A stretch of 64,000 bases of DNA from a plasmid (NZ_CP086424.1); one strand, 5' to 3'; shown: positions 3,742-35,580, counted from the stretch's first letter. Numbers and translations are program-made. Notes: a model not told the origin generated them from the sequence alone.

Positions 3742-3770
3742 ATTTACAGTATTATAAAATGATACTGTGA
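3742..3770. promoter_or_regulatory. Inverted-repeat operator-like motif TTTACAGTATTATAAAATGATACTGTG, family B copy 1
   Basis: Near-perfect 10-3-10 inverted repeat, 37 bp upstream of the minus-strand PAPS-reductase gene start. Confidence 0.45.
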
Positions 3771-3936
3771 AAAGTAAAGTTTTCAGAACGACTAATCACT
3801 CAGGAGAACTTGATAAGCACCAGAAAGCAATCTAAAGGTGGTTTTTCGGTGAGGTTAGTTCAGGGGCAACCTGCCGCTGCTGATTGGAAATCATCAAGAA
3901 GTGGCTTTTTGGTGGGGTTACGGTTTGAAGGGGTGA

Positions 3937-3957
3937 GTATGTGGGAACGTTGCACGG
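3937..3957 (+). promoter_or_regulatory. Solitary iteron copy (GTATGTGGGAACGTTGCACGG) upstream of the 3974 operon
   Basis: Same sequence as the oriV iterons, located 2 kb away and 17 bp upstream of the ORF start. Confidence 0.55.
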
Positions 3958-3973
3958 TTAAAGGGGGCCGCAC

Positions 3974-4582
3974 ATGAAAACGATAAAGCGGTTCATCGTA
4001 TGGGTGAATTACGGTCTTGAGGGTTGGAGCATTTTCGGATCGAGCGATGACTGGGATGAAGCGGTATCCATCCGTTCGGAAGCGATAGACGAATGCAATA
4101 TTGACGAGGAAGACATCATCTTGGCAGAAAACAAAAACGAGCTGGTGGTAAAACCTGCGGCCAAGCAAATGACGGAGTGGCACCGGGAACTGGAAGCCGT
4201 CCTTATGACCTTGGATGACTGCCAGATGGAATGTGACGGTATGACATGGGCAGTAAGCCACCTACTCAATGAAGCGGGTGTACCTCATGACTGCATGTAT
4301 GGCTTTGTGCGAAACGAACAGACCAAGGACATCGTGACACCGCATTTCTGGGTTGTCCTGGATGATGGGTGGCTGGTGGATCTGAGGCTACGCATGTGGC
4401 TGGGCGATCACGACAACATTCCTCACGGGGTATTCCATCCCGATAACGAGCCAGGACTTTTCTACAAGGGAGACCCGGTTCAAAACCATAAAGGGATGAG
4501 ACTGGGCAAAGCCGTCCTGGACATCATGACCGACGGAAAACTTTCACATGTGAAAGTTCCTGAACGACAAGACGGAGAGTAA
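3974..4582 (+). CDS. Hypothetical protein
   Basis: 202-aa ORF. The palindrome at 4539..4558 lies in its 3' end. Confidence 0.55.
   Translation: MKTIKRFIVWVNYGLEGWSIFGSSDDWDEAVSIRSEAIDECNIDEEDIILAENKNELVVKPAAKQMTEWHRELEAVLMTLDDCQMECDGMTWAVSHLLNEAGVPHDCMYGFVRNEQTKDIVTPHFWVVLDDGWLVDLRLRMWLGDHDNIPHGVFHPDNEPGLFYKGDPVQNHKGMRLGKAVLDIMTDGKLSHVKVPERQDGE
4539..4558. repeat. Family A palindrome AACTTTCACATGTGAAAGTT (copy 1)
   Basis: Perfect 20-bp palindrome. Confidence 0.8.
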
Positions 4583-4586
4583 TAGC

Positions 4587-5108
4587 GTGGAATTTGATTA
4601 CGACAAGTCAGTATCAAACGCACATCTTGAGGCCGCAGGCTGGGGTATGGATGCCTTTAACCACTCCAACCCATTTGAGAGTCATGTCATCTATGTGCGT
4701 GACTACCGCAACGATCACATCCGCCTGTTCACCATCAAGCAGGCTGACTTCGACACGATAAAGCTGCCGCTTCACCTTACCTCCGACATGCTGGCTTCGG
4801 TGATCGCTGAGTTCGTATCGAAGGCAGCAAAAGGGAAGTTGAATACGAAGGAGTCCGACACGCTGGCTCCTGCCTTGGTTGGCTATGCCAAATCAACAGA
4901 AACCTACCGGAGCTGGCGGAGAGTTTCTGGAGCAACAGAGCGATTGCATATGGTCATCAATATCTATGCGGGTTCTGAATTGCTGAGACCTTTCATCGCT
5001 CGGGCTCCTGAGACCGTCCTGACGACCCAAGAGCTACTGGTCTTCTCATCACAGGTTAAGAGCATGGATGTATCCAATCATCCAGAGTGGTTTAGGGGCC
5101 GGAGGTAG
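4587..5108 (+). CDS. Hypothetical protein
   Basis: 173-aa ORF tightly packed with its neighbours. A GTG start is possible. Confidence 0.5.
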   Translation: MEFDYDKSVSNAHLEAAGWGMDAFNHSNPFESHVIYVRDYRNDHIRLFTIKQADFDTIKLPLHLTSDMLASVIAEFVSKAAKGKLNTKESDTLAPALVGYAKSTETYRSWRRVSGATERLHMVINIYAGSELLRPFIARAPETVLTTQELLVFSSQVKSMDVSNHPEWFRGRR

Positions 5109-5110
5109 TC

Positions 5111-5632
5111 ATGAAGCCAGTTCTCTGGATATTCGTCCTGATCATCGCCCCTTTCGTCATTGCGAAAGTGGACCAATGGCGCAAACGCGGCATTGGAGAC
5201 ACCTGGGCGTGGTGGAAATCAGAGAACATGCCTTATGAGCTGCGCTCGGCCACTCTGTTTTTGTCCGAACAGGACATATCAACCACACAGCCGGTGCCCA
5301 TGCACGGCAGGGTTGATCAGGTGTACCAAACCAAGAATGGGGTTCTCATTCCCTTGGACACCAAGCTGCGCCAGGTAAACCACATCTATGAGTCGGACAT
5401 TATCCAGCTCTCGGTTTACCGGGTAATTCTGTCACACAAGTACAAGGCACCCGTTGCCAAGTACGGCTATGTCCGAACCGTTGTTGAGACAGCGGACGGG
5501 GATAGAGTCCGTTACATCAAGACAAACCTTCTCAGCGAAAAAGAAGTGGTCAAGCTGTGGCACCGCTATCAATCCATCCGTTCTGGTCAGGTAAAAACCT
5601 CCTGTTCCTGTGGCGGAAAGTTTCACATGTGA
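5111..5632 (+). CDS. PD-(D/E)xK nuclease-fold protein (RecB/Cas4-like motifs) with N-terminal TM segment
   Basis: Motifs HGRVD, LDTK and QLSVY, in the order D...(D/E)xK...QxxxY. C-terminal CSCGG. Confidence 0.45.
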   Translation: MKPVLWIFVLIIAPFVIAKVDQWRKRGIGDTWAWWKSENMPYELRSATLFLSEQDISTTQPVPMHGRVDQVYQTKNGVLIPLDTKLRQVNHIYESDIIQLSVYRVILSHKYKAPVAKYGYVRTVVETADGDRVRYIKTNLLSEKEVVKLWHRYQSIRSGQVKTSCSCGGKFHM

Positions 5633-5638
5633 AAGTTC
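5621..5638. repeat. Family A palindrome (copy 2, one mismatch)
   Basis: GTTTCACATGTGAAAGTT overlapping the stop codon of the 5111..5632 gene. Confidence 0.7.
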
Positions 5639-5728
5639 TGGATTGAATCAGGGTTGCCCGAATTGGGCAGCTAGGCGGGGTTGCATTTTTGAAAAGTCCT
5701 GTACGCTGGTTGGTATAGGAGGTGAATA

Positions 5729-6202
5729 GTGGCCCAGCTTAAACATAACCGCTTCGTCATGTTGGGGTCCTTGGTAGCGACGGTCGTAGCTGCCGCCAAT
5801 GGCTTGAGTTTTCTCACCCTTATGGCTGGTGGAATGACCCTTCTCCAGTTCATGGCTTGGAAGCAACAAGATGCTGTCCGGAGCCGGTTTAAAGCTGCGA
5901 AGGATGCGTTTGAAGCGTTGAACGTCATTGCGTTCGACAAGCACTGGGTAGGTTCAACCGCGACGGTCGCCAAAGTGTCGAACATGATCACTCCGCCCGA
6001 ACGACTGGATAAGCCCTGGGCGGTGCAAGTTCTGGCCGTGACCAAAGGTGGGACGTGGTTCGCGGTGGATCTGCAAGTGACCGGCACTGACAAGGTTCAG
6101 ATGCTTAGCCTCCACCAGCTTAGTGAAAAGGCGGCAAAGACCATGCTGGCCTTCGACCTCGAAGTGTATGAGAAATTTTTCGGAAAACCTGATGTTGCAT
6201 GA
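5729..6202 (+). CDS. Hypothetical membrane protein
   Basis: 157-aa ORF with hydrophobic N-terminal segments. Confidence 0.5.
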   Translation: MAQLKHNRFVMLGSLVATVVAAANGLSFLTLMAGGMTLLQFMAWKQQDAVRSRFKAAKDAFEALNVIAFDKHWVGSTATVAKVSNMITPPERLDKPWAVQVLAVTKGGTWFAVDLQVTGTDKVQMLSLHQLSEKAAKTMLAFDLEVYEKFFGKPDVA

Positions 6203-6212
6203 GGACAATGTG

Positions 6213-6506
6213 ATGGAAAAAGTCAAAAGCGTAGATGCCGTGGAGTTCACGGCAGCAGATAAGAAGGCGATGACCCATGCGGCATACGCCCAGTGTTTCT
6301 TCATTCTGGCCCAAGTGATGGCATTCCCTTCCCTGGGGGTGGCTGGCGCTATGGTTGCTGCTCTGTGCGGCATGATGCCGTGGTTGACCAAGTTCGCCAA
6401 AGAGGCTCCATCGAAAGCCTTTGGCATGGTGATGGCTTCACTCTGCCTTGCTCCTGTGTACGGGAAACTCTGTGAGCTGGTGGTCCACGCGATTCAGGGA
6501 GCTTGA
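6213..6506 (+). CDS. Small hydrophobic protein
   Basis: In-frame ATG at 6213, after a GAGGA-like ribosome-binding site. 97 aa, two TM segments. Confidence 0.4.
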   Translation: MEKVKSVDAVEFTAADKKAMTHAAYAQCFFILAQVMAFPSLGVAGAMVAALCGMMPWLTKFAKEAPSKAFGMVMASLCLAPVYGKLCELVVHAIQGA

Positions 6507-6510
6507 GCTT

Positions 6511-7365
6511 ATGGGGGTAGTACGAGTTCCCTACCTCTTGGCTGAGCTGAAAGAACGCGGATGTGCTGATGAATCTGCTCTGGCGCAGGTTATGCAGCCT
6601 GGATGCCGAATTGGAGAGGAAGACCTGCGGAAGTTGGCCGCAAATTTAGGGCTTGAAGTGTCCGAGCTGGCACCAGCGCCAGAGAACGCGGCCAACACCC
6701 GGTTCAAAGCAAAGCTGAGAGGAGGTTTGGCCTCCTTTCTTTTTGAGTACGACGGCTGTTTCCGACATGCAGAAGGCTCCAGCCATGCAGAAATGTTGGG
6801 TATCGAGCAAGAAGACGACATAGGTCTTCCGAGTCGAGCTGCTGACGCCATGCTCCTGGAGAAGACGCTTTACCAGGTAATCGCTCGGGCTAAGTACATG
6901 CTCGGCAAAATCGACAGCAAGTTTGTCAGGTCAGAACAAGCAATCGAGTTCCGTGAGCAACTTGCTCCTGGGATCTTCAAACCAGGTTACAGAGGTTTCC
7001 GATTCAAGGAGGCTGCCGCTGGTGATTTGCCTACTGTCATGATTGACGGTCGGAAGTTCAACTGCGTTGCCAGCATAGCCAGAGCACATGGACTTGATCC
7101 GGTAACGGTGCGTAGGCGCATTGCGGACACCGGGAAGGCCGCAGACAAACTCTCCAATGATGAGTGGAAGCTCATCCTCGCCAAGAAAAAAGGTAAAGGG
7201 AAACCCTTCACCTATCTGGACAGGACCTACAGCAACATTGCTCAGTTCTGTCGTGAGCATCAGCTCAACACCAACCTTGTTTACCAGAAAGTCAAAGACC
7301 GGGCTGATAGCGCTGATGAAGAGTTCTGGGGACTGATAATCGAAACATGCAAAAGGAAAAACTAA
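6511..7365 (+). CDS. Hypothetical protein
   Basis: 284 aa, counting from the internal ATG that is preceded by GGAG. Confidence 0.5.
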   Translation: MGVVRVPYLLAELKERGCADESALAQVMQPGCRIGEEDLRKLAANLGLEVSELAPAPENAANTRFKAKLRGGLASFLFEYDGCFRHAEGSSHAEMLGIEQEDDIGLPSRAADAMLLEKTLYQVIARAKYMLGKIDSKFVRSEQAIEFREQLAPGIFKPGYRGFRFKEAAAGDLPTVMIDGRKFNCVASIARAHGLDPVTVRRRIADTGKAADKLSNDEWKLILAKKKGKGKPFTYLDRTYSNIAQFCREHQLNTNLVYQKVKDRADSADEEFWGLIIETCKRKN

Positions 7366-8324
7366 TGGCAGAAAACAAAGAGATCCCCTGGGAGAAAGAA
7401 CTCATTGAGAAGTACATGTTCACCCTGCATAAAGAGCAGGTGAAAGACCGGCGCTGGCGGACCATGTTGCGTGTGCTTCGCGCATCTGGTTTCGTGCTTC
7501 TCATGATCGGCTTCATCATTTTGGCATCTAATCCGGGTGGGATGCCGTGGCAAAGCGCCAAGGCAGGAGCCCCTCACACCGCGTATATCAACATCCGTGG
7601 TGAAATTGCTGCTGGCACTCTGGCCGATGCTGATCACCTTATCCCGTCCATCCAAGCTGCATTCGACAACCCGAACTCACAAGCTATCGTGCTTCGCATA
7701 AACAGCCCTGGCGGTAGCCCGGTTCAAGCAGGACGGATTTATGACGAAGTGAAGGCGCAGCGAGCCCTTCATCCGGAGAAAAAGGTCTACGCCATCATTG
7801 ATGACATCGGTGCCTCTGGCGGTTACTACATCGCCTCTGCTGCGGATGAAATCTATGCTGACCGCGCCAGCCTTGTCGGTTCTATCGGCGTCATCAGCTC
7901 GGGGTTTGGATTCACCGGCTTGATGGACAAGCTCGGCATCGAGCGCCGGGCTATCACTTCCGGAGAGCACAAAGCGCTTCTCGACCCATTCTCCCCTCTT
8001 ACCTCTGACATGAAGAAATTCTGGGAGGGCGTTCTATCGAAAACCCACCAGCAGTTCATCGAACGAGTGAAGGCTGGGCGGGGTGATCGACTGAAAGACG
8101 ACCCAGAGGTGTTTTCTGGATTGCTCTGGAACGGGGAGCAGGCCAAAGACATTGGGCTGATTGATGGCCTGGGTAGTTTGAACTCCGTGGCGCGAGACGT
8201 CATCCACCAGAGCAACTTGGTGGACTACACACCAACCGAAGACATCATCCGGCGACTGACCCAACGAGCGAAGCTCGAAGCCAGTTCCTTCGTGCAAGAA
8301 CTCAGCGCTGTGAAAGTTTACTGA
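7365..8324 (+). CDS. sppA: S49-family signal peptide peptidase (SppA/SohB-like)
   Basis: Serine-protease core motifs SPGGS and GASGGYY, plus an N-terminal TM segment. TAATG overlap with the upstream gene. Confidence 0.7.
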   Translation: MAENKEIPWEKELIEKYMFTLHKEQVKDRRWRTMLRVLRASGFVLLMIGFIILASNPGGMPWQSAKAGAPHTAYINIRGEIAAGTLADADHLIPSIQAAFDNPNSQAIVLRINSPGGSPVQAGRIYDEVKAQRALHPEKKVYAIIDDIGASGGYYIASAADEIYADRASLVGSIGVISSGFGFTGLMDKLGIERRAITSGEHKALLDPFSPLTSDMKKFWEGVLSKTHQQFIERVKAGRGDRLKDDPEVFSGLLWNGEQAKDIGLIDGLGSLNSVARDVIHQSNLVDYTPTEDIIRRLTQRAKLEASSFVQELSAVKVY

Positions 8325-8339
8325 TAGGAGCAGTTTGAT

Positions 8340-9200: not shown

Positions 9201-9202
9201 AA

Positions 9203-9220
9203 ACTTTCACATGTGAAAGT
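9203..9220. repeat. Family A palindrome ACTTTCACATGTGAAAGT (copy 3)
   Basis: Perfect 18-bp palindrome immediately after the dsbA stop codon. Confidence 0.8.
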
Positions 9221-9233
9221 GGAGTGAGAACTG

Positions 9234-13201: not shown

Positions 13202-13212
13202 ATCTTAATCAT

Positions 13213-13288: not shown

Positions 13289-13582
13289 ATGAGATTGTCG
13301 TCAACTCAAAAAGACGTTTTGTTCATTCTATACGCAATTGAGGCCGGTGGAAAAGCCGAGCCTGTACCAGGTGTAAAAATACTGGAGATGATCAATTCAG
13401 CTCGCCAGAGCGGTATTCATGGAACGAACTTCCGAACGTCATGCCACACGCTGGTGGAGAACGGCCTGTTGAACAAGTACCGGAATGCTTCTCTAAAGCT
13501 GGCCTTTAGGCTGACCGACGATGGCAGGGAACGTGCAGGAGAGATATACCGAAAACGGCTGGAAGAAGAGCAAGAGAAGTAA
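13289..13582 (+). CDS. Small winged-helix-like putative transcriptional regulator
   Basis: 97-aa basic protein. The composition is weak evidence. Confidence 0.35.
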   Translation: MRLSSTQKDVLFILYAIEAGGKAEPVPGVKILEMINSARQSGIHGTNFRTSCHTLVENGLLNKYRNASLKLAFRLTDDGRERAGEIYRKRLEEEQEK

Positions 13583-14428: not shown

Positions 14429-14977
14429 ATGAACAACCTACCCCTACTGCTCGATGCAAGAGAAGCCATTGACTACTACCACCAGCATCCAGGCATGACT
14501 GATGCAGAAAAGGCCTATGTGGTCGCGTTCCTAAGCGGAGAGGGGCGTTCAAACAGTCAGATCAGAGAGGATCTGGGTATTGAGAAGGTCTATACGGTTA
14601 CACACCTGAAACGCGCCGGTACGCTATCGGAGGAAGAGCTAACACTCTGGCTCAGAAATCCACGCAAGATCACCCTGGGGCATGTGAGGGCCGTGGCTAA
14701 GTTACCTTTCAGCAAGAGAGAAAAGCTCCTGAGGGATCTCCTGCATACCAGGACACCGGTTCATAAATTTGAGGCGATAGCGAAGGGCAAAGAAGTGGAC
14801 AGGGATGCAGACATTAAGCGCCTGGAGACCCTGATGAGCGATGCTACGGGTAGGCCTATCAAAGTTCGCTATAACCCCGCGAAGCGCTCCGGGGAACTGA
14901 CGCTGGGATTCTTCACGCTCGATGACCTGGATGACGTGTGCAAGGCTTTGGGGTTTGATCCAAGCGAGCAGATGTAA
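14429..14977 (+). CDS. ParB/Srx-like N-terminal domain protein
   Basis: 182 aa. TLGHVRAVAKL resembles the ParB-like nuclease / sulfiredoxin GxxRxxA motif. Confidence 0.4.
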   Translation: MNNLPLLLDAREAIDYYHQHPGMTDAEKAYVVAFLSGEGRSNSQIREDLGIEKVYTVTHLKRAGTLSEEELTLWLRNPRKITLGHVRAVAKLPFSKREKLLRDLLHTRTPVHKFEAIAKGKEVDRDADIKRLETLMSDATGRPIKVRYNPAKRSGELTLGFFTLDDLDDVCKALGFDPSEQM

Positions 14978-14985: not shown

Positions 14986-15003
14986 ACTTTCACATGTGAA
15001 AGT
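14986..15003. repeat. Family A palindrome (copy 5)
   Basis: Perfect ACTTTCACATGTGAAAGT, 9 bp after the stop of the 14429..14977 gene. Confidence 0.8.
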
Positions 15004-15025: not shown

Positions 15026-15054
15026 TTTACAGTATCATAAAATGAATCTGTAAA
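15026..15054. promoter_or_regulatory. Family B inverted-repeat motif TTTACAGTATCATAAAATGAATCTGTAAA (copy 2)
   Basis: 13 bp upstream of the 15067 ORF. Confidence 0.45.
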
Positions 15055-15066: not shown

Positions 15067-15318
15067 ATGTGCTTCCAACGAAAAGCTGGCCTTGGGCGTT
15101 ATAACTCAACCAGACCTGAGTGGCTGGCGGCGTACCGAAACGCAAGATGTATGAGAAGCTCAGGTAAAGAACCTGATGCTTCTCTTTCCGGGATAGCTTG
15201 GAAGGCGCAACTCATTGTTGCCCATGAAAGAGGCAGAATTGACAGCCTGGCTGTCCCTTTGGATGCCAGATTGATAGCAAAGAACCTCATCGACGAGATC
15301 CTTGCTGAGGAGAACTGA
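15067..15318 (+). CDS. Hypothetical protein
   Basis: 83-aa ORF. Confidence 0.35.
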   Translation: MCFQRKAGLGRYNSTRPEWLAAYRNARCMRSSGKEPDASLSGIAWKAQLIVAHERGRIDSLAVPLDARLIAKNLIDEILAEEN

Positions 15319-16371: not shown

Positions 16372-16713
16372 TTAGCTAAAGCATTCGCCGGTTTTAAAGT
16401 CGTAGCTGTAAGTGCCCATCAGATTGGCTTTTCGGCTTTTCTTGCCATTGGTGTTTGCTGGCGCTTTAGGGGTCGCAAGTACGCCATAGAACAGGATACC
16501 AACAAGTGCCGCTTGCCACGCGAAAACAGCAACCAGAATCCAAAAAGCAGCAGCCAGAACCGGCAGTTTGTGCAGAAGGTTGAGCACCGACTTGGCCCAA
16601 ATCACTGCCGGGATAGCCAGCACTGCGTAACCCCAGTTGGTGGCCTCAAGCATAGCCAGGCCAAGAATAACAACAGCCATCAGCGCGATATTCAGTACAT
16701 GTTTCATGGTCAT
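16372..16713 (-). CDS. Small integral membrane protein
   Basis: 113 aa, 3 to 4 TM segments. Confidence 0.45.
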   Translation of the reverse strand: MTMKHVLNIALMAVVILGLAMLEATNWGYAVLAIPAVIWAKSVLNLLHKLPVLAAAFWILVAVFAWQAALVGILFYGVLATPKAPANTNGKKSRKANLMGTYSYDFKTGECFS

Positions 16714-16803
16714 CTCTCCTTTTCAACTTACACTTTTATCCTATCACAGCATTAAAAAATGCAACTGTGAAAGGGCATTTTTCATTCAAAAAGAGGTGAC
16801 ACT

Positions 16804-17292
16804 TTGAGTGCAATTATCAGCAAGTGCGGCATGTACAGATACCGTCTGGAAAGGGATGTGCAACCCGAAGGCCTTGTGTTCGGTTATTTTGGTGTAAACG
16901 GCTCTACGGCCACGGCCACCGAGGACGATCACACGGTCAGAAAGTGGATAGGGTTTACCAAGGTCAACGGAGGGAGGCGATTCATAGTCGGTAATGCTTT
17001 TGCTTTTCGGGCGACCGACGTTCGAGAGCTGGCTACGGCGGTTGATCCTGTCGGGCCTGAAAATGAAATCCACTTGGAAAGGATTATTCGGGATGCTGAT
17101 GTCTTGGTGCCCTGCTGGGGGAGCCGAACTAAGCTGCCTAAGTCTTTGCATGTTCATTTGGACAGGCTTTTAGAGCAGCTCGTTGCATCTGGGAAGCCGG
17201 TATTGGCATTTGGCGTGACTGGTTCGGGGGACCCGAAGCACCCACTAATGCTTGGATATTCGACAAAACTTGTGCCCTGGGGAGGAAAATAA
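16804..17292 (+). CDS. Hypothetical protein
   Basis: 162-aa ORF. Confidence 0.45.
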   Translation: MSAIISKCGMYRYRLERDVQPEGLVFGYFGVNGSTATATEDDHTVRKWIGFTKVNGGRRFIVGNAFAFRATDVRELATAVDPVGPENEIHLERIIRDADVLVPCWGSRTKLPKSLHVHLDRLLEQLVASGKPVLAFGVTGSGDPKHPLMLGYSTKLVPWGGK

Positions 17293-17792: not shown

Positions 17793-17837
17793 AGGAAAAT
17801 TACTTCGGAAGGGCGGCTATGGCCGCTTTCTTTTTAA

Positions 17838-17865
17838 TATTTACAGCATCACATAATGATACTAT
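17838..17865. promoter_or_regulatory. Family B motif TTTACAGCATCACATAATGATACTATGA (copy 3, degenerate)
   Basis: About 90 bp before the IS26 boundary. No downstream gene remains. Confidence 0.35.
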
Positions 17866-17954
17866 GATGTTGTTAATTTACTTGGGGAGGCGCTTATGCT
17901 CACTGCTAAATGTATAGGGTGCGGATGCACCGATGATCACGCTTGTGTTGAAAA

Positions 17955-18774
17955 GGCACTGTTGCAAAGTTAGCGATGAGGCAGCCTTTTGTCTTATTCA
18001 AAGGCCTTACATTTCAAAAACTCTGCTTACCAGGCGCATTTCGCCCAGGGGATCACCATAATAAAATGCTGAGGCCTGGCCTTTGCGTAGTGCACGCATC
18101 ACCTCAATACCTTTGATGGTGGCGTAAGCCGTCTTCATGGATTTAAATCCCAGCGTGGCGCCGATTATCCGTTTCAGTTTGCCATGATCGCATTCAATCA
18201 CGTTGTTCCGGTACTTAATCTGTCGGTGTTCAACGTCAGACGGGCACCGGCCTTCGCGTTTGAGCAGAGCAAGCGCGCGACCATAGGCGGGCGCTTTATC
18301 CGTGTTGATGAATCGCGGGATCTGCCACTTCTTCACGTTGTTGAGGATTTTACCCAGAAACCGGTATGCAGCTTTGCTGTTACGACGGGAGGAGAGATAA
18401 AAATCGACAGTGCGGCCCCGGCTGTCGACGGCCCGGTACAGATACGCCCAGCGGCCATTGACCTTCACGTAGGTTTCATCCATGTGCCACGGGCAAAGAT
18501 CGGAAGGGTTACGCCAGTACCAGCGCAGCCGTTTTTCCATTTCAGGCGCATAACGCTGAACCCAGCGGTAAATCGTGGAGTGATCGACATTCACTCCGCG
18601 TTCAGCCAGCATCTCCTGCAGCTCACGGTAACTGATGCCGTATTTGCAGTACCAGCGTACGGCCCACAGAATGATGTCACGCTGAAAATGCCGGCCTTTG
18701 AATGGGTTCATGTGCAGCTCCATCAGCAAAAGGGGATGATAAGTTTATCACCACCGACTATTTGCAACAGTGCC
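17955..18774 (-). mobile_element. IS26: IS26 (820 bp, 14-bp terminal inverted repeats GGCACTGTTGCAAA)
   Basis: Both terminal repeats read directly. The transposase (Tnp26) sequence MNPFKGRHFQRDIILWAVRWYCKYGISYREL is recognisable. Confidence 0.9.
18007..18711 (-). CDS. tnp26: IS26 transposase Tnp26 (234 aa)
   Basis: Exact recognisable Tnp26 sequence. Start at the MNPF ATG, 64 bp from the IS end. Confidence 0.9.
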   Translation of the reverse strand: MNPFKGRHFQRDIILWAVRWYCKYGISYRELQEMLAERGVNVDHSTIYRWVQRYAPEMEKRLRWYWRNPSDLCPWHMDETYVKVNGRWAYLYRAVDSRGRTVDFYLSSRRNSKAAYRFLGKILNNVKKWQIPRFINTDKAPAYGRALALLKREGRCPSDVEHRQIKYRNNVIECDHGKLKRIIGATLGFKSMKTAYATIKGIEVMRALRKGQASAFYYGDPLGEMRLVSRVFEM

Positions 18775-23290: not shown

Positions 23291-24175
23291 ATGCTGCGTT
23301 CACAGCGCCGCGGCAGGGATCCGCCGTGCTGGTTGTCGGAAAAGGAGCCGCTAGTGGGAAAGAGGAGGGTAAATTTTCAGCGTTGCTGGCTCCCCGTCAG
23401 CCGGATTGGGTTGCATCGCAGGGGTGTCGAAAGAGTCAACTGCGGTCCAAAGCTGTTGGACTTGGGTGAAAAGGGCGTTTATTCTTCCTATACGTGCCGC
23501 GTTCCAGGCGGCGACTATGAGGGCTATGTCGATGCCCATGTGCGCCGGCTGGAGGCGCTACGCCGGGCCGGTATCGTCGAGCGGATCGACGCCGACCAAT
23601 GGCGCATCCCCGATGATCTGGTCAGCCGTGCCGCCGCCCATGACGCCGGCCGAGACAGTCAGGCCAGCGTTCGCGTCCTTTCCCCGGTCGATCTGAACAA
23701 ACAGATCGGATCGGACGGCGCGACCTGGCTGGACCGGCGGCTGATCCACGGCGAGACGGCCGACCTTGCGCCAACCGGCTTCGGGCAACAAGTCCGCGAA
23801 GCCATGGACCAGCGCCGCGAGCACCATATCGAACAGGGCGACGCCACCCGCAGCCGGGACAGCCGCGTCTTCTACCGGCGCAACCTTCTCGCCATCCTGC
23901 GGGAGCGCGAGGTAGCCGGCGTCGGATCGGATATGGCTTTGAGTAAGGGCCTGCCGTTCCGCGCCGCCACGGACGGCGAGAGCGTCAGCGGCAAGTTTAC
24001 CGGAACCGTGCATCTATCGAGCGGCAAGTTCGCCGTGGTCGAGAAATCCCATGAGTTCACCCTTGTCCCGTGGCGGCCGATCATCGACCGCCAACTCGGC
24101 CGCGAGGTTATGGGCATCGTGCAGGGCGGGTCGGTGTCGTGGCAGTTAGGGCGGCAGAGGGGGCTGGAACGCTGA
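23291..24175 (+). pseudogene. Relaxase-like (virD2-like) gene remnant between ISCR2 and floR
   Basis: Long GC-rich ORF with no convincing start. In known floR islands this position holds a truncated relaxase. Confidence 0.4.
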
Positions 24176-30380: not shown

Positions 30381-30440
30381 TGGAGGTTCCTTCAGTTTTC
30401 TGATGAAGCGCGAATATAGAGAAATATCCCGAATGTGCAG

Positions 30441-31256: not shown

Positions 31257-31465
31257 GGGGGCTTCTATAATAATAATAATCGAGCATGAGTCTCATACGG
31301 ATGCTCGGGTCGAAAGGGAATCCCCAGGCGAGTAACCTGTTTGCGGTGATCCATTAGCTGCAGGAGCAGAATAGCATACATCTGGAAGCAAAGCCAGGAA
31401 AGCGGCCTATGGAGCTGTGCGGCAGCGCTCAGTAGGCAATTTTTCAAAATATTGTTAAGCCTTTT

Positions 31466-31560
31466 CTGAGCATGGTATTTTTCATGGTATTACCAATTAG
31501 CAGGAAAATAAGCCATTGAATATAAAAGATAAAAATGTCTTGTTTACAATAGAGTGGGAT
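31466..31560. mobile_element. ISCR2 terminal-region remnant (two blocks matching 21553..21660) adjacent to sul2
   Basis: CATGGTATTTTTCATGG and CTTGTTTACAATnGAGTGGGA are shared with the end of the intact ISCR2. Confidence 0.55.
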
Positions 31561-31562
31561 AA

Positions 31563-31874
31563 ATGGACGCTAAAGAACTGAACCACATGATAGCTGAGGC
31601 CTACAGCCGGGATTTGCAAAAGCCTGAGCTGGTATCGTTCAAAGAGGTGAGTCGCTGGGGGCGTAAGTACGGTTTCCCCGTCGTATGCACTCTGGCCGAT
31701 GAAAGTGAAGAAAAGCAGATCCACTGGGCTGCCAGTTTGCTCATTCAAGTAGCCGGTACTTGGCCGCGAGAAGATATGCCGGAATTGCTCACACCGGAAC
31801 GGGGCTCCGCGCTGTTCAACGATGCGATGCAGTTATTGGCGAATGGGCTTGGAGCAGCAAATCAATTGCGCTGA
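31563..31874 (+). CDS. Hypothetical protein (backbone gene upstream of parA)
   Basis: 103-aa ORF that starts immediately at the island boundary. A terminator follows it. Confidence 0.45.
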   Translation: MDAKELNHMIAEAYSRDLQKPELVSFKEVSRWGRKYGFPVVCTLADESEEKQIHWAASLLIQVAGTWPREDMPELLTPERGSALFNDAMQLLANGLGAANQLR

Positions 31875-31895
31875 CAGCACAAACCTTGTCAATAA

Positions 31896-31925
31896 GCGGC
31901 CTTCATGGCCGTTTTTTTGTTTAAA
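31896..31925 (+). terminator. Rho-independent terminator
   Basis: AGCGGCCTTCATGGCCG hairpin followed by TTTTTTTG. Confidence 0.6.
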
Positions 31926-31943
31926 GTTTGTTTTAACAGAACC

Positions 31944-31971
31944 ATAATTAGATATTGCAGTATCATTTTAT
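31944..31971. promoter_or_regulatory. Family B motif TTGCAGTATCATTTTATGATCGCTACAA (copy 4) in the parA promoter region
   Basis: Degenerate version of the 10-3-10 inverted repeat. It directly abuts the family A palindrome. Confidence 0.4.
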
Positions 31972-31983
31972 GATCGCTACAAT

Positions 31984-31999
31984 CTTTCACATGTGAAAG
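31984..31999. promoter_or_regulatory. Family A palindrome CTTTCACATGTGAAAG (copy 6), 42 bp upstream of parA. Candidate parS/operator.
   Basis: 16-bp perfect core. Position is typical for ParB autoregulation. Confidence 0.6.
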
Positions 32000-32041
32000 T
32001 TTGGGGGTGGTCTTGATCACCTGCGAGAAACCAAAATAGAG

Positions 32042-32833
32042 GTGGGTATGGCAAAAGTAATCAGCTTCGCCAACCAGAAAGGCGGAGTGGGTAAGAGTAC
32101 CCTCTGTATCCAGCAGGCCTTTTATCTGGCGTTACAGAAGAAAAAGAAAGTGCTGGTCTTGGATATGGATGGTCAGGGGAACACGTCCTCTCGACTGGCC
32201 CCCAGACGAGAGCTTGAGGATGGTGACTACGAGCCCATCCTCACAGGAACCAAAACCGCAGAGCTGTTCGCTTACGAGCTGGACGGCATTGAGGTCATGC
32301 ACTGCCCTTGCGGTGCAGACCTCATTCATACGCCGAAAAACGACCCGGATCTGTTTGAGATGGAGGCTGTGCCTCTTGACCAGGCCATGAATCCGGCTCG
32401 CCATTTGGCTGAGCTGTTTGAGAACTACGACTACGTGCTGATTGATTGTCCGCCTAGCCTCGGCAGAAAGCTGGTGGCAGCGTTGGTGATGTCTACCCAT
32501 GTGGCATGTCCAGTAAAGCTCTCTGGCTTCGCTGTGGACGGCGTAGAAGGTCTCCTGAACACGATTATTGGTGTGCGCGAGGCGTACAACCAAGATTTGG
32601 AGATCCTGGGCATCGTGATCAACGACATGGACCGCTCTGTCAATCACGACAAAGCCCTCAAGTCGCTGGAGAACACAGTTCCGGATCTGTTGTTTGAGAA
32701 CAAAATTATGCACCGGCCTCCGCTCGATACGGCGACGACTGATGGCATCCCTGTCTGGGAGCTTCGCTATGGACATGTCGCGGCCAAAGAAGTTGAGGCG
32801 GTGTTGGAAGAACTATTAGAGAAGGTGGGCTAA
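32042..32833 (+). CDS. parA: ParA partition ATPase (Walker-type, MinD/ParA family)
   Basis: KGGVGKST deviant Walker A. 263 aa. Confidence 0.85.
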   Translation: MGMAKVISFANQKGGVGKSTLCIQQAFYLALQKKKKVLVLDMDGQGNTSSRLAPRRELEDGDYEPILTGTKTAELFAYELDGIEVMHCPCGADLIHTPKNDPDLFEMEAVPLDQAMNPARHLAELFENYDYVLIDCPPSLGRKLVAALVMSTHVACPVKLSGFAVDGVEGLLNTIIGVREAYNQDLEILGIVINDMDRSVNHDKALKSLENTVPDLLFENKIMHRPPLDTATTDGIPVWELRYGHVAAKEVEAVLEELLEKVG

Positions 32834-32836
32834 GCG

Positions 32837-34018
32837 ATGGCATTGAACAATTTAAAAGGCCTGTCCGAACTTGCTAAAGCCGCCAAAGGCAAGAAAGGCA
32901 AAGAGGTTCTTACCGTACCTGTTGACGACGTTGTATCCAAGGTCCAGGTTCGTAAGCGCTTCCGTAACATTGAAGAGCTGGCGGCAACCTTGCTGACCGA
33001 AGGGCAGCAGTCTCCGATCATCGTGTTCCCGAAGAACGAAGAAGGCAAGTTCGTCATCCAAAAAGGGGAGCGGCGTTGGAGAGCGTGTAAACACGCTGGT
33101 ATCGAGACCATTGACTTGGTGGTGAATGATAAGGTCCAGAACAACTTGGACGAGACTGCTGGTGAGCTGATCGAAAACATCCAGCGGGATGACTTGACTC
33201 CGGTAGAGATTGCCGAGGCGTTAAACCTGTTTATTGAAGAAGGTTGGAAGCAAAAGGATATTGCTGATCGGCTCGGTAAGAATATCACTTTCGTATCTAC
33301 GCATCTGTCGTTGCTCAAGCTACCTGACTGTGTGCGTGAGTTATACGATAATGAAGTATGTTCTGATACAGAGACCTTGAATAACCTTCGTCTCTTGTTC
33401 GATCTGAATGAAGAAAGATGTCGCGCCGTCTGCGCGGTGGCTATGTCTGACGGGATTACTCGTAAACAAAGCCGTGAGCTGCTGAATGATGCCAAACGTA
33501 TCAAAGACGAAATGGAAAAAGGCCCACTGACTGGCTCCCACCAGAATGATGAGCTTGGCGCTGGCAACACCGACGAGCAATCCCTCAACTCGGGTGGGGA
33601 TGGTACGTCGGAACAAACCGGGAATGACGACCTGAACCTTGCCCAGGAGGAACTGGAAGGGGGTAAAAATTCCAATGGTCAGGACGATGATGACGAAGAC
33701 CCTTTGCGTGATGAAGAGGGTGAGCACAAAGATCCTGTCAAGCAGCCAGATAACAGCGGCAAGGACAAAGATGAAGAAGGCGGTGATGCTCTTCCTCCTC
33801 TGCCGAAGGACAAGGAATGGAAGAACGTCCGGGCTGACAGTTTGATTTTTGCTGTCAACGTTAACCTGGATGGCGAGACCAAACGTGGAGTCATCATGAC
33901 CGACCGTGTTGCTCTGGTTCCGTCTACTGTCTGGGTTAAAACGCTCGATGGCGAAGGCAAGGAAAAGCATGTTCATGTGCCTGTGTCAGACATTGAACTC
34001 CTGAGTGTCGAAGGCTAA
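32837..34018 (+). CDS. parB: ParB partition protein (ParB/Spo0J family) with acidic low-complexity C-terminal extension
   Basis: GERRWRA box II motif, HTH region. 393 aa. Confidence 0.8.
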   Translation: MALNNLKGLSELAKAAKGKKGKEVLTVPVDDVVSKVQVRKRFRNIEELAATLLTEGQQSPIIVFPKNEEGKFVIQKGERRWRACKHAGIETIDLVVNDKVQNNLDETAGELIENIQRDDLTPVEIAEALNLFIEEGWKQKDIADRLGKNITFVSTHLSLLKLPDCVRELYDNEVCSDTETLNNLRLLFDLNEERCRAVCAVAMSDGITRKQSRELLNDAKRIKDEMEKGPLTGSHQNDELGAGNTDEQSLNSGGDGTSEQTGNDDLNLAQEELEGGKNSNGQDDDDEDPLRDEEGEHKDPVKQPDNSGKDKDEEGGDALPPLPKDKEWKNVRADSLIFAVNVNLDGETKRGVIMTDRVALVPSTVWVKTLDGEGKEKHVHVPVSDIELLSVEG

Positions 34019-34060
34019 TAAAGGAGGCCCAGCCAGAGAGGTTGGGCCTGTCAAGAACAG

Positions 34061-34339
34061 GTGAATATGAAGATCTCACAGGACATGAAAAGAAAATTTG
34101 CTTTGGTGAATGCCCTGTCTAAAACGGAGAAGCCAAGTCTCCAAGACCTTCACAAGGCAACAAATATTCCTGAATCAACGATCAAGAGACAGTTGTCTGC
34201 CCTGCGTGATGAGTTCGGAATGAATATCTTGTTCGTCAGGGAGTCTACCGGCGAACGAGGTGCCACCGGCTACTACATGCTGACAGACTGGGGGATCTTA
34301 GACAGGTCTTCGTTCTTGAACCGGTACGGAAAACTGTAA
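34061..34339 (+). CDS. 053: Small HTH protein downstream of parAB (053-like stability gene)
   Basis: 92 aa with an HTH motif (NIPESTIKRQLSALRDEFG). Follows parB directly. Confidence 0.5.
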   Translation: MNMKISQDMKRKFALVNALSKTEKPSLQDLHKATNIPESTIKRQLSALRDEFGMNILFVRESTGERGATGYYMLTDWGILDRSSFLNRYGKL

Positions 34340-34391
34340 GGTGCCATAGAGCAGCGCATTGAATGCAAAACCCGCCAATCGGCGGGTTTTT

Positions 34392-35060
34392 TTATGCTGC
34401 CACGGTAGCGGCGGTTGCTGGAGGTTTTTCGGCGTAGTAGGCGATGTTCTTGGTTCGTCTGCTAAGGGTGTCTATGCCGACGATACTCAGCGTTTTGGGA
34501 GTGGTATTGCGGGACTCGAAATAATGGAATAGCTGGATCATGCAGCACTTCACCATCAACGGATCGATGTCTTCCAGGTAGATTGAGGCTTCTCTCAATG
34601 CTTCGGGACCGTGGTTCTCGATCAGGTTTTCCATCCAGTGAATGGCGTTGATGCCAGAACCACAGCAGGGCTCATAAAAGTCTGCCGAAGACTGTGAGCC
34701 AACAATGAGTGACATCAAGCGGCCAATCTCTGGAGGAGTGGGGAAGTAATTGGTGCCCTTCTTGTGGAAGCCAGACATGCTTAGGACGTAACCCAAAACA
34801 TCGCTGGTGGGGTCGCGCTTAATGGCGGCAGACAGGACGTGAGAGAGCTCGAAGGCGACCGGCTGAAGTTCTTCCGGGATCTCCTCCTTGGCTGGGTATA
34901 GGCCAGTCTGCAAGTATGCCCACTGGTCAATAAAGGCCTCAACAAACCGAGATGTGCCCATTCTGTATCGGGACTGCTCGATGAGAGATAAAGCCTTGGA
35001 TGTAAGTTGCTGTGTTTCTGGTGACATAAGCGCTCCAGTTTGTTCTGACGAAACATTCAA
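34392..35060 (-). CDS. HsdM-like N6-adenine DNA methyltransferase fragment-like protein (motifs X and I only)
   Basis: NYFPTPPEI (motif X, YFTP-like) followed by DFYEPCCGSG (motif I). No NPPY/F motif IV is seen. 222 aa. Confidence 0.45.
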   Translation of the reverse strand: MNVSSEQTGALMSPETQQLTSKALSLIEQSRYRMGTSRFVEAFIDQWAYLQTGLYPAKEEIPEELQPVAFELSHVLSAAIKRDPTSDVLGYVLSMSGFHKKGTNYFPTPPEIGRLMSLIVGSQSSADFYEPCCGSGINAIHWMENLIENHGPEALREASIYLEDIDPLMVKCCMIQLFHYFESRNTTPKTLSIVGIDTLSRRTKNIAYYAEKPPATAATVAA

Positions 35061-35342
35061 GAGGTAGAAACGAAGAACCCCGCCGAAGCGAGGTTCTTTG
35101 CTTTCCTGCCTGATCGCCTTAATGCCGAAGCAAAGACGTCTTGATAAAGTCGGGGCAACCGGACATTTCCCGGTCGATGAAGTCCTGACGTTTCGCCAGC
35201 GGCCATTTCATGAACGCCGCGAGCGGGATGCGCTTATTCGTGTTAGTATTGCCTTGCAGCATAACAAAGCTCCTTAATTGCTTGATTGTGTTGTAAGGGC
35301 TGCAACGAAGGTCGAAGAGCGATGCGGCCCTTATTTATGATT

Positions 35343-35365
35343 ATTACAGCATCATAAAATAATAT
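35343..35365. promoter_or_regulatory. Family B half-motif TTACAGCATCATAAAATAATATC (copy 5a)
   Basis: Left arm; the matching right arm is at 35551..35580. Confidence 0.35.
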
Positions 35366-35397
35366 CAAGAGACAATAAAACGATACCAAGAAACAAA

Positions 35398-35415
35398 ACT
35401 TTCACATGTGAAAGT
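35398..35415. repeat. Family A palindrome (copy 7) in the divergent intergenic region
   Basis: Perfect ACTTTCACATGTGAAAGT. Confidence 0.8.
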
Positions 35416-35550
35416 CTCCCCGCTGTCCACCTCGCACACTCCAAACGCCCAAACGCCCAAATAACTTGTCTATCTGCCCAAAATGGGCGCGTAAGCGTCC
35501 GATAGAAAGTAATTGTTAGTGAGATATTGACTACACGGAATATGGCTATA

Positions 35551-35580
35551 TCATAGAATCATAAAATGATGCTGTAAAAG
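35551..35580. promoter_or_regulatory. Family B motif ATCATAGAATCATAAAATGATGCTGTAAAA (copy 5b) abutting the start of the 35580 gene
   Basis: The right arm ATGATGCTGTA is the reverse complement of TACAGCATCAT at 35345. Confidence 0.4.

What the first reader, a model, noticed from the sequence alone, without database searches (positions are those of the whole stretch)
3742..35580. Second operator-like family: 10-3-10 inverted repeat TACAGTATCAT-AAA-ATGATACTGTA just upstream of several operon starts
Copies are at 3742-3770, 15026-15054, 17838-17865, 31944-31971, and a split pair at 35343-35365 and 35551-35580. Four of them lie directly upstream of likely operon starts:
- 3742-3770 sits 37 bp upstream of the PAPS-reductase operon.
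- 15026-15054 sits 13 bp upstream of the 15067 cluster.
- 31944-31971 sits upstream of parA.
- The split pair lies upstream of the 35580 overlapping-gene operon (the right arm 35551-35580 abuts its start).

The arms are mutually reverse-complementary even when the individual copies are degenerate. This looks like the operator set of a KorA/KorC-like global repressor that controls early or leading-region backbone operons. In the parA promoter the motif is adjacent to the family A palindrome, which suggests dual control.
Basis: seen in the sequence. Interest (0 to 1): 0.6.

Follow-up and report, generated by a model that had tools for sequence, protein, structure and literature searches.

The report
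Promoter-embedded repressor operators on IncC plasmid
A 23-29 bp palindrome sits inside the core promoters of at least ten backbone operons of IncC multidrug-resistance plasmids (seven in this window) and is conserved in distant relatives, so it is very probably the operator set of an undescribed plasmid-wide repressor circuit that links plasmid partition, establishment genes and the master switch for conjugation.

Summary
The window is the repA-proximal 64 kb of an IncC (IncA/C2) plasmid. All are intergenic and overlap sigma70-like -35/-10 hexamers. The same motif occupies orthologous promoters in IncA, Photorhabdus, Aeromonas pAhD4-1, Vibrio pMT14, a Marinobacterium element and, as half-sites, Comamonas plasmids (ParB only 36% identical there). 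These promoters include parA-parB-053, the acr1-acaDC master-activator operon, methylase genes and small membrane-protein genes. 'Family A' is the published IncC parS, the site bound by the KorB-domain ParB. It lies 23-50 bp from three motif copies, a KorA/KorB-like layout. No IncC paper I could search describes this motif. The binder is unresolved. I favour 053 (about 0.4): it is the only recognisable DNA-binding protein besides ParB found in every motif-bearing lineage. However, published data show that ParAB053 alone represses PparA only weakly. Acr1 (about 0.2) represses its own motif-bearing promoter but is absent from Comamonas plasmids that keep the motif. Neither protein is homologous to KorA or KorC. 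The 97-aa protein (13289..13582), the 182-aa ParB_C protein and HigA are excluded. This is a new member of a known kind, of moderate to high interest.

The parts
3743..3771 (.). Site s1, TTTACAGTATTATAAAATGATACTGTGAA. It lies in the divergent region between the PAPS-reductase-like gene (2590..3705, minus) and the 3974.. operon.
   Evidence: PWM score 38.9, with 11/14 arm pairs. It overlaps the minus-strand promoter-like site TTTACT-N16-TATAAT (3778->3751), which points at the PAPS-reductase gene. It is conserved in IncA at L010:3738.
15026..15054 (.). Site s2, TTTACAGTATCATAAAATGAATCTGTAAA. It is 12 nt upstream of ATG 15067 (RefSeq instead annotates a start at 15151). The parS core at 14988-15001 lies 46 bp away, centre to centre.
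   Evidence: PWM score 37.4; parS position. The segment 13.6-17.8 kb is absent from IncA.
16743..16771 (.). Site s7 (new), ATCACAGCATTAAAAAATGCAACTGTGAA. It lies between the small membrane-protein gene 16372..16707 (minus) and 16804..17292 (plus).
   Evidence: Score 24.4 without being in the training set. Near-identical promoters stand upstream of the paralogous gene next to acr1 and upstream of a gene near traN. The orthologous target in pAhD4-1 also carries sites.
17840..17868 (+). Site s3, TTTACAGCATCACATAATGATACTATGAT. The whole site is a promoter-like TTTACA-N17-TATGAT, and it follows a terminator hairpin at 17810-17829.
   Evidence: The downstream ORF (ATG 17897) is truncated by the IS26 end at 17955.
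31954..31982 (+). Site s4 in PparA, ATTGCAGTATCATTTTATGATCGCTACAA. The left arm plus the inner palindrome fill the spacer of TTGCAG-N17-TACAAT. A weaker upstream neighbour is centred at 31947.
   Evidence: score 24.6; inner-palindrome score 19.3. The left half-site is conserved in 8 of 9 lineages in alignment A2. The -10 assignment agrees with the description in PMC10954446.
   Evidence: Exact-match scan. ParB binding and the 14 copies in R55 are reported in PMC10954446.
32049..34339 (+). The parA (32049..32833), parB with a KorB domain (32837..34018) and 053 (34067..34339) operon. It is the one motif-B target found in every lineage, and it encodes the favoured candidate binder, 053.
   Evidence: Annotation. 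053 is PF09904 HTH_43, a winged HTH. 053 is 98/69/76/54% identical in IncA/pAhD4-1/pMT14/Comamonas, against 91/64/57/36% for ParB.
35343..35371 (-). Site s5, ATTACAGCATCATAAAATAATATCAAGAG. It overlaps the minus-strand promoter-like TTGATA-N17-AATAAT, which points at the small ORF and the N6-methylase gene.
   Evidence: Conserved in IncA, Photorhabdus and pKAZ3.
35400..35413 (.). parS core between s5 and s6, 49.5 bp from the centre of s5.
35550..35578 (.). Site s6, ATCATAGAATCATAAAATGATGCTGTAAA, 10 nt upstream of ATG 35589, the first gene of the 35589.. operon. It overlaps the -10 of the plus-strand TTGACT-N16-TATCAT. On the minus strand the site itself reads TTTACA-N17-TATGAT.
   Evidence: Conserved in IncA, Photorhabdus and pKAZ3.

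Best explanation
The copies are operators of a plasmid-encoded, sequence-specific repressor that acts across the IncA/C-type backbone. A dimer would bind the inner palindrome (T)ATCAT-N3-ATGAT(A) and the outer ACAG/CTGT. Because each site lies on or between the -35 and -10 hexamers, a bound repressor would keep RNA polymerase off.

Targets in IncC:
- the PAPS-reductase-like gene;
- the 15067 cluster;
- two small membrane-protein genes;
- the gene downstream of 17868;
- parA-parB-053;
- an N6-methylase gene;
- the long 35589.. operon, which includes a cytosine methyltransferase;
- the acr1-acaDC master-activator operon and a gene near traN, both outside the window.

At several of these promoters a parS site for the KorB-domain ParB lies 23-90 bp away, so the two proteins probably repress together, as KorA and KorB do on RK2.

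Shown: the sites, their statistics, their promoter overlap and their conservation. Inferred: repression itself, and the identity of the binder. I favour 053, the winged-HTH protein encoded last in parA-parB-053, at about 0.4. That would make the circuit autoregulated and would explain why 053 is essential although partition does not need it. The confidence below is for the operator/repressor reading as a whole, not for 053.
For: - Enrichment: 8 PWM hits >=16.5 in the window, 8 in a whole IncC plasmid, 9 in pMT14 and 4 in a Comamonas plasmid. The expected numbers are 0.0, 0.03, 0.5 and 0.0.
- All window sites lie between annotated genes.
- Promoter-like hexamers coincide with s1, s3, s5 and s6. 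For s4 the -10 matches the promoter described in PMC10954446.
- A perfect consensus promoter with an AT-rich spacer reaches the threshold in under 2% of trials, and the inner palindrome alone scores 19-23 at the best sites, where P is below 1e-5. The signal is therefore not just promoter hexamers.
- Orthologous conservation: in PparA the left half-site is kept in 8 of 9 lineages (A2). In Pacr1 the only invariant block across 8 lineages is TTGAC.G..TCA...T.T...C.T.TAAA (A1).
- The motif occupies equivalent promoters in pAhD4-1, pMT14, L018 and L023.
- parS adjacency.
- For 053: it has a wHTH domain. Its recognition-helix stretch IPESTIKRQL is invariant wherever the motif is canonical and is altered (IPLQTIKRQI) in Comamonas, where the inner palindrome is degraded. 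Apart from ParB it is the only recognisable DNA-binding protein conserved in IncC, IncA, pAhD4-1, pMT14 and Comamonas. It is essential but not needed for ParAB-mediated stabilisation (PMC10954446).
Against: - No binding or expression experiment exists for this motif.
- ParA+ParB+053, supplied from a mini-IncC replicon or from ParaBAD at 1% arabinose, repress a 173-bp PparA-lacZ fusion only weakly. That fusion contains motif B. Whole plasmids give 8-11-fold repression (PMC10954446). This is hard to reconcile with 053 being a sufficient strong repressor at that site.
- The HTH_43 family has no characterised DNA target.
- One relative, L020, has 053 as a stand-alone gene and shows no detectable motif in 20 kb.
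- Several sites are half-sites only, which is unusual for a simple dimeric repressor.
- For s2 and s7 the proposed -10 hexamers (TGTAAA, TGTGAT) are non-canonical, and the promoter scan did not call them.
Confidence: 0.7

Rival explanations
1. The binder is Acr1, the Ner-like repressor encoded first in the acr1-acaDC operon. Motif B would then be the Acr1 operator, and Acr1 would be a global regulator rather than a local one. It would also be the unidentified Sci-sensitive co-repressor of PparA.
For: - Acr1 alone represses a single-copy Pacr1-lacZ fusion in a plasmid-free host (PMC4207636).
- The only block of Pacr1 conserved in 8 lineages is the core promoter with the motif-B left half-site. 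pMT14 has the full palindrome there, reading TTGACA-N17-TATAAA on the acr1 strand.
- A factor encoded outside parAB053 is needed for full PparA repression.
- SGI1 raises acaDC expression about 8-fold (PMC8373056).
- Acr1's nearest solved relative, EnrR, binds a 15-bp AT-rich palindrome as two closely packed monomers and acts globally, with its top ChIP peak at its own gene.
Against: - Four Comamonas-lineage plasmids have no Acr1 (tblastn E>0.8). Their operon is promoter-SLT-acaD-acaC, yet they keep significant motif-B sites at four promoters. One of these, TTTACAGTATCGGAAAATGAACTTCTAAA, stands in front of SLT-acaDC and is identical in plasmids that are 94-96% alike.
- In IncC, Pacr1 is only a half-site (inner score 6.1).
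- A second palindrome, TGTCA-N5-TGACA, is unique to Pacr1 and lies just downstream. It could be the true Acr1 site.
- acr1 can be deleted.
Confidence: 0.2
2. The binder is another backbone protein that is not recognisable as DNA-binding. It could be one of the small proteins of unknown function conserved in all lineages, possibly the same as the Sci-sensitive co-repressor of PparA.
For: - This reconciles the two conflicting facts: the motif persists without Acr1, and ParAB053 is not sufficient at PparA.
- Several proteins conserved in IncC, pMT14 and Comamonas have no Pfam domain: those of 117, 173, 181, 202, 205 and 241 aa, plus the 92-aa protein (pVIC11-A 23350..23628) whose pMT14/Comamonas counterpart is annotated as an ASCH-domain protein.
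Against: - None of these proteins looks like a transcription factor by sequence.
- The extra factor in PMC10954446 could act through parS or be the H-NS-like Acr2, with no connection to motif B.
Confidence: 0.2
3. No dedicated regulator exists. The copies would be a family of related strong promoters, partly bidirectional, in which TTTACA-N17-TGTAAA reads the same on both strands, spread by duplication of a promoter cassette.
For: - The outer arms are -35-like hexamers.
- Many copies coincide with predicted promoters and lie in divergent regions.
- Three copies (16757, 78992, 129811) are near-identical beyond the motif.
Against: - Sigma70 does not read spacer sequence, yet the inner ATCAT-N3-ATGAT is the best-conserved part, with inner scores of 19-23 and P below 1e-5.
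- It stays conserved at orthologous promoters while the flanks are unalignable.
- The resistance-island and tra promoters in the same window score below 12.
Confidence: 0.08
4. The motif is the site of a host global regulator (LexA-, Fur- or TyrR-like).
For: The arms contain TACAGTA/TACTGTA (LexA half-site letters), ATCAT/ATGAT (Fur-like) and TTTACA/TGTAAA (TyrR-like). This comparison rests on my own knowledge of those consensus sequences.
Against: - In every case the half-sites are everted relative to the known box, for example ACAG-N15-CTGT against LexA's CTGT-N8-ACAG.
- The full palindrome is found in only 143 of 5426 complete E. coli genomes, and 429 of the 440 places are on plasmids.
- The motif travels with the plasmid family through Enterobacterales, Vibrio, Aeromonas, Marinobacterium and Comamonas.
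Confidence: 0.03

Closest known systems
KorA/KorB (with KorC and TrbA) global repression network of IncP-1 plasmids RK2/RP4
   Same: - Short palindromic operators sit on core promoter elements of many backbone operons.
- One set of operators is paired, at tens of bp, with the sites of a ParB/KorB-family protein that is both the partition protein and a regulator.
- The candidate small repressor is encoded in the same operon as the ParA and ParB/KorB homologues (korA-incC-korB compared with parA-parB-053).
- The regulon covers partition, establishment genes and transfer control.
   Different: - There is no sequence relationship. 053 is HTH_43 and Acr1 is HTH_35, and neither hits a KorA/TrfB or KorC model.
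- The operator is 10-3-10 (ACAGyATCAT-N3-ATGATrCTGT), not the 12-bp OA or the 17-bp OC (those two from my own knowledge).
- Many copies span the whole -35 to -10 interval.
- Repression has not been demonstrated.
IncC parS / ParB (KorB-domain) system described by Kiss and co-workers (PMC10954446)
   Same: Both are dispersed palindromes on the same backbone. Both are present in PparA, and they occur together at three window promoters and at the acr1 region.
   Different: - The sequence is distinct (TTTCACATGTGAAA for parS).
- parS has 8 copies in the window, some inside genes, whereas all motif-B copies are in promoters.
- In Comamonas plasmids parS changes to TTTTTCGCATGCGAAAAA, while the motif-B half-sites keep ACAGTAyCAT.
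Ner-family repressors (Mu Ner, EnrR, Acr1)
   Same: - They are small HTH proteins of mobile elements.
- They bind AT-rich palindromes of about 15 bp with very short spacers.
- They autoregulate and can act globally (PMC9023278).
- The inner part of motif B, TATCAT-N3-ATGATA, has that format.
   Different: The motif persists in plasmids that lack any Ner-like gene. The sequence is unrelated to the EnrR consensus AATAAATNATTTATT.
ArdK/StbA/KorA-type regulatory networks of IncW (R388) and IncN plasmids
   Same: Repeated operators upstream of establishment and maintenance operons give negative feedback and, presumably, a burst of expression on entry into a new host. This comparison rests on my own knowledge.
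   Different: The proteins and operator sequences are different. No comparison was run here.

Membership tests
KorA (IncP-1) operator/regulator system | The regulator is homologous to KorA/TrfB. | tested here: not met
   Pfam gives 053 = PF09904 HTH_43 (plus weak ArsR/IclR-type HTH hits) and Acr1 = PF13693 HTH_35. No KorA-family hit appeared at E<=0.01 for 053 or E<=1 for Acr1.
KorA (IncP-1) operator/regulator system | Palindromic operators overlap the core promoter elements of several backbone operons. | tested here: met
   Seven window sites overlap -35/-10-like hexamers. At least ten sites occur on a whole IncC plasmid.
KorA (IncP-1) operator/regulator system | Operators are paired with KorB/ParB sites at a short distance. 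| tested here: met
   parS centres lie 45.5, 23.5 and 49.5 bp from s2, s4 and s5, and about 90 bp from the 78992 site next to acr1.
KorA (IncP-1) operator/regulator system | Repression in trans by the regulator. | not testable with these tools
   Only indirect evidence exists. Whole IncC plasmids repress PparA 8-11-fold, whereas ParAB053 alone does so weakly (PMC10954446).
KorC operators | A KorC homologue and its 17-bp palindrome. | tested here: not met
   No KorC-like domain was found in any candidate scanned. The motif sequence differs from the KorC operator (operator sequence from my own knowledge).
IncC parS (ParB site) | A 14-bp core TTTCACATGTGAAA flanked by AAAC/GTTT. | tested here: not met
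   Motif B shares no core with parS, and the two are separate elements in PparA.
Ner-like (Acr1) operator | The regulator is present wherever the operator is maintained. | tested here: not met
   Acr1 is absent from 4 Comamonas-lineage plasmids that keep significant sites.
Ner-like (Acr1) operator | The operator lies in the regulator's own promoter, a promoter shown to be Acr1-repressible. | tested here: inconclusive
   A half-site is invariant in Pacr1 across 8 lineages, and pMT14 has the full palindrome. However, a second palindrome unique to Pacr1 could equally be the Acr1 site.
LexA box | CTGT-N8-ACAG. | tested here: not met
   The arms read ACAG-N15-CTGT, i.e. everted and too far apart.
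053 (HTH_43) as cognate binder | The protein co-occurs with the motif in every lineage, and the motif is present at the promoter of its own operon. | tested here: met
   053 is present in IncC, IncA, pAhD4-1, pMT14, L018, L021, L023 and Comamonas. Its operon promoter carries the motif or the half-site in 8 of 9 lineages and at the operon start in Comamonas. The exception is L020.
053 (HTH_43) as cognate binder | The protein is sufficient for repression. | not testable with these tools
   Published indirect data argue against sufficiency at PparA.

The most novel reading that the evidence does not exclude
053 is the functional analogue of KorA for the A/C-type plasmid superfamily. Bound at motif B, it would capture the KorB-domain ParB that loads at the neighbouring parS. 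The pair would form a second, AcaCD-independent global circuit that couples partition, methylase and other establishment genes and the acr1-acaDC conjugation switch. This circuit, or an accessory factor of it, would be what the SGI1 protein Sci disables to destabilise its helper plasmid.
Probability: 0.25. Interest if true: 0.75.

Novelty: new member of a known kind. Interest (0 to 1): 0.55.

Why it matters
IncC plasmids are major carriers of carbapenemase and other resistance genes. Their known regulation consists of AcaCD, AcaB, Acr1/Acr2 and, since 2024, ParB/parS.

- A second dispersed operator family would define the missing negative circuit for the AcaCD-independent half of the backbone.
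- It gives a concrete DNA target for the 'unknown co-repressor' of PparA that SGI1 is proposed to attack.
- It offers a testable function for the essential orphan gene 053.
- It places the promoter of the conjugation master switch in the same regulon as partition.
- The motif is conserved from Enterobacterales to Vibrio, Aeromonas and Comamonas plasmids, so the circuit would be ancestral to this plasmid superfamily (typed MOBH by MOB-suite).

Tried and rejected
- **97-aa winged-helix-like protein (13289..13582):** present only in IncC, IncA and pAhD4-1, and absent from pMT14 and Comamonas.
- **182-aa ParB_C 'transcriptional regulator' (14429..14977), HigA and the 15067 cluster:** the whole 13.6-17.8 kb segment is missing from IncA, which keeps the motif.
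- **HU-like protein:** absent from pMT14 and Comamonas.
- **Acr2 (H-NS-like):** absent from pMT14, and not expected to be sequence-specific.
- **'L020/L021 have 053 but no motif':** I first took this as evidence against 053. Alignment A2 then showed that L021's PparA has the half-site, so only L020 remains an exception.
- **XCN1_p, the acr1-less Xenorhabdus plasmid named in PMC4207636:** it is not in the collections.
- **Hancock 2017 and 2020 papers:** not held.
- **Half-site-only PWM:** too little information to use. The TTGACAGCATCAC in Yersinia pVM82 is not significant on its own.
- **Transfer direction:** unknown, so 'leading region' could not be evaluated.
- **Genome-contig scan with ParB:** it returned only 5 loci.

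Full report
**What the window is.** The window is the repA-proximal 64 kb of an IncC (IncA/C2) conjugative multidrug-resistance plasmid. It is collinear with over a thousand PLSDB records. An IS26-bounded resistance island occupies about 17.96-31.5 kb. The parA-parB-053 operon lies at 32.0-34.3 kb, and the tra genes lie beyond about 42 kb.

**The observation.**
- Aligned on the middle base of the 3-bp spacer, the consensus is TTTACAG-y-ATCAT-N3-ATGAT-r-CTGTAAA.
- A symmetric 29-bp PWM built from the six listed copies recovered a seventh at 16743-16771. It scored 24.4, against a maximum of 17.5 in 30 first-order Markov simulations.
- With all seven in the model, the window has 8 positions scoring >=16.5 against 0.0 expected. 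One of them is a shifted shadow of the 17854 site.
- The IUPAC pattern gives 10 strand-hits against 0.02 expected.
- Nothing scores >=12 in the resistance island or in the 36-64 kb tra region.
- All seven sites lie between annotated genes. By my count from the table, only about 13% of the first 17.9 kb is intergenic.

- The parA copy spans 31954-31982.
- The 'split pair' is two independent sites.
- The parA and 35357 copies keep only the left arm and the inner palindrome.
- The PAPS-reductase gene is on the minus strand, so site 1 lies in a divergent region.

**Relation to promoters.**
- The consensus scan places promoter-like hexamers on s1 (minus strand, TTTACT-N16-TATAAT, towards the PAPS-reductase gene), s3 (TTTACA-N17-TATGAT), s5 (minus strand, TTGATA-N17-AATAAT, towards the methylase gene) and s6 (plus strand, TTGACT-N16-TATCAT, whose -10 lies in the left arm; the minus strand reads TTTACA-N17-TATGAT).
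- At parA the palindrome fills the spacer of TTGCAG-N17-TACAAT. That -10 is the one the authors of PMC10954446 describe as partly overlapped by parS.
- The outer arms therefore double as -35-like or -10-like hexamers.
- This is not the whole signal. A perfect TTGACA-N17-TATAAT with a 60-80% AT spacer reaches score 16.5 in only 0.3-1.6% of trials. The inner 17 bp alone score 19-23 at the best sites, where P is below 1e-5 for random AT-rich sequence.

**Family A.** PMC10954446 shows that the 14-bp core TTTCACATGTGAAA is the parS site bound by the IncC ParB, which carries a KorB domain. R55 has 14 copies, and the copy in PparA overlaps the -10. The window has 8 exact cores. Three of them lie 23.5-49.5 bp, centre to centre, from motif-B sites s2, s4 and s5.

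The same paper reports three further results:
- Whole IncC plasmids repress a 173-bp PparA-lacZ fusion 8-11-fold.
- A mini-replicon carrying parAB053, or ParaBAD-driven parAB053, represses it only weakly.
- The SGI1 protein Sci abolishes the extra repression.

The authors infer an unidentified co-repressor encoded on the backbone. By coordinates, the 173-bp fragment contains motif B. None of the IncC papers I could search mentions this palindrome.

**Beyond the window.** A complete IncC plasmid (pVIC11-A, L013-L015 concatenated) has three further sites:
- 78440 lies about 105-135 bp upstream of acr1. On the acr1 strand it reads TTGACA-N17-TGTAAA.
- 78992 lies upstream of a small membrane-protein gene, next to a parS.
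- 129811 lies upstream of a gene near traN.

The regulon therefore includes the promoter of the acr1-acaDC operon, the master switch of conjugation.

**Conservation.** The motif occupies orthologous promoter-proximal positions in:
- IncA pEco15-1;
- a Photorhabdus contig;
- Aeromonas pAhD4-1 (ParB 64% identical);
- Vibrio pMT14 (57%);
- a Logan metagenome contig (L018);
- a Marinobacterium element (L023).

Whole pMT14 has 9 hits >=16.5 against 0.5 expected. Its targets are parA, acr1 (a full palindrome inside TTGACA-N17-TATAAA), the small membrane-protein gene, methylase genes and an ASCH-domain gene.

- In PparA aligned across 9 lineages, the left half-site, the -10 and parS form the conserved block, and 8 of the 9 keep the half-site (A2).
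- In Pacr1 aligned across 8 lineages, the only invariant block is TTGAC.G..TCA...T.T...C.T.TAAA (A1).
- The full palindrome is essentially absent from E. coli chromosomes. It matches in 143 of 5426 genomes, and 429 of 440 places are on plasmids. That argues against a host regulon.

**Who binds?**

*Excluded by distribution:*
- The 97-aa winged-helix-like protein and the HU-like protein are absent from pMT14 and Comamonas.
- The 182-aa ParB_C protein, HigA and the 15067 cluster are absent from IncA.
- Acr2 is absent from pMT14.

These exclusions rest.

*Acr1.* It is Ner-like (HTH_35), and expressed alone it represses Pacr1 in a plasmid-free host (PMC4207636). Its nearest solved relative, EnrR, binds a 15-bp AT-rich palindrome and acts globally. 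Three points count against it:
- Four Comamonas-lineage plasmids have no Acr1, and their operon is promoter-SLT-acaD-acaC. They still carry four significant sites (0 expected, simulated maximum 15.3).
- Those sites stand in front of the ParB-like-parA-parB-053 operon, parM, SLT-acaDC and an hns gene. The acaDC site is identical in plasmids that are 94-96% alike.
- Pacr1 also contains a second palindrome, TGTCA-N5-TGACA, found nowhere else on the plasmid. It could be the true Acr1 site.

*053.* It has a winged HTH (HTH_43). Among recognisable DNA-binding proteins, only 053 and ParB are conserved in all five complete or well-sampled motif-bearing lineages.
- It evolves much more slowly than ParB.
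- Its putative recognition helix, IPESTIKRQL, is invariant wherever the motif is canonical. It is altered in Comamonas, where only half-sites remain.
- Its own operon is the one target found in every lineage.
- It is essential, yet ParAB-mediated stabilisation does not need it.
- Against it: ParAB053 represses PparA only weakly, and L020 has 053 but no detectable motif.

*A third protein.* A still unrecognised universal protein would reconcile both objections.

My estimates are 053 about 0.4, Acr1 about 0.2, another backbone factor about 0.2-0.25, and no dedicated repressor about 0.1.

**Comparison with known systems.** Functionally this is a KorA/KorB-type arrangement. Small palindromic operators sit on core promoters of many backbone operons, and some are paired with the sites of a KorB-domain ParB. 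The candidate regulator is encoded in the par operon. It is not a member of the KorA or KorC families, because neither the proteins nor the operator sequences are related.

**Verdict.** The feature is real, statistically solid and evolutionarily conserved, and to my searches it has not been described. It is most probably the operator set of a global repressor circuit of A/C-type plasmids. It is a new member of a known kind, and the identity of the repressor is the open, directly testable question.

Noticed in passing
window 13289..13582: A 97-aa protein annotated as 'chromosome segregation protein ParM' reads like a winged-helix DNA-binding protein (weak PaaX/EarA hits). It is the last gene of the long 3974.. 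operon and occurs only in IncC, IncA and pAhD4-1.
   Followed up: partly
window 17897..17955: The gene driven by the s3 promoter is cut after 19 codons by the terminal inverted repeat of IS26 (GGCACTGTTGCAAA at 17955). A strong, presumably regulated promoter now reads into the resistance island.
   Followed up: partly
L011 12967-13926; L023 11764-12672; L016 16880-17905; L017 10780-11937: Relatives carry a second ParB-like (HTH_ParB) gene that IncC lacks. In pAhD4-1, the Marinobacterium element and Comamonas a motif-B site directly precedes it. In Yersinia pVM82 a 053-like gene follows it without any parA.
   Followed up: partly
L016 and the whole Comamonas plasmid NZ_CP083939.1: The parS-like palindrome has changed to TTTTTCGCATGCGAAAAA (7 copies), which fits with the ParB there being only 36% identical. 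The motif-B half-sites, by contrast, stay ACAGTAyCAT.
   Followed up: partly
window 16743-16771; pVIC11-A (L013-L015 concatenated) 78992 and 129811: Three near-identical promoters read TTCACAGTTGCATTTTTTrATGCyGTG. The first two precede paralogous small membrane proteins (111 and 120 aa), and that gene-promoter pair is kept in pAhD4-1, pMT14 and Comamonas.
   Followed up: partly
pVIC11-A (concatenated coordinates) 78400-78414, just downstream of the Pacr1 -10: A palindrome TGTCA-N5-TGACA is unique on the plasmid. It is conserved in IncC, a divergent Citrobacter plasmid and Photorhabdus, and only partly elsewhere. It is a candidate Acr1- or AcaB-specific site.
   Followed up: partly
window 35430-35460: Short direct repeats CCAAACGCCCAAACGCCCAAA lie between the two motif-B sites and the parS of the 35.3-35.6 kb divergent region.
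   Followed up: no
L017 10353-10365 and 10569-10598: Yersinia pVM82 has TTGACAGCATCAC, identical to a motif-B half-site, about 420 bp upstream of its ParB-like/053-like pair. It also has a perfect 30-bp palindrome, CCTGTTTTCAATTTA/TAAATTGAAAACAGG, among many TTTTCAA repeats. The half-site match is not significant on its own.
   Followed up: partly
window 14429..14977: The 182-aa 'transcriptional regulator' has only a ParB C-terminal dimerisation domain (PF23552). A homologue sits next to parAB in the high-GC relative L020. It might modulate ParB rather than bind motif B, and it could be the Sci-sensitive extra factor at PparA.
   Followed up: no
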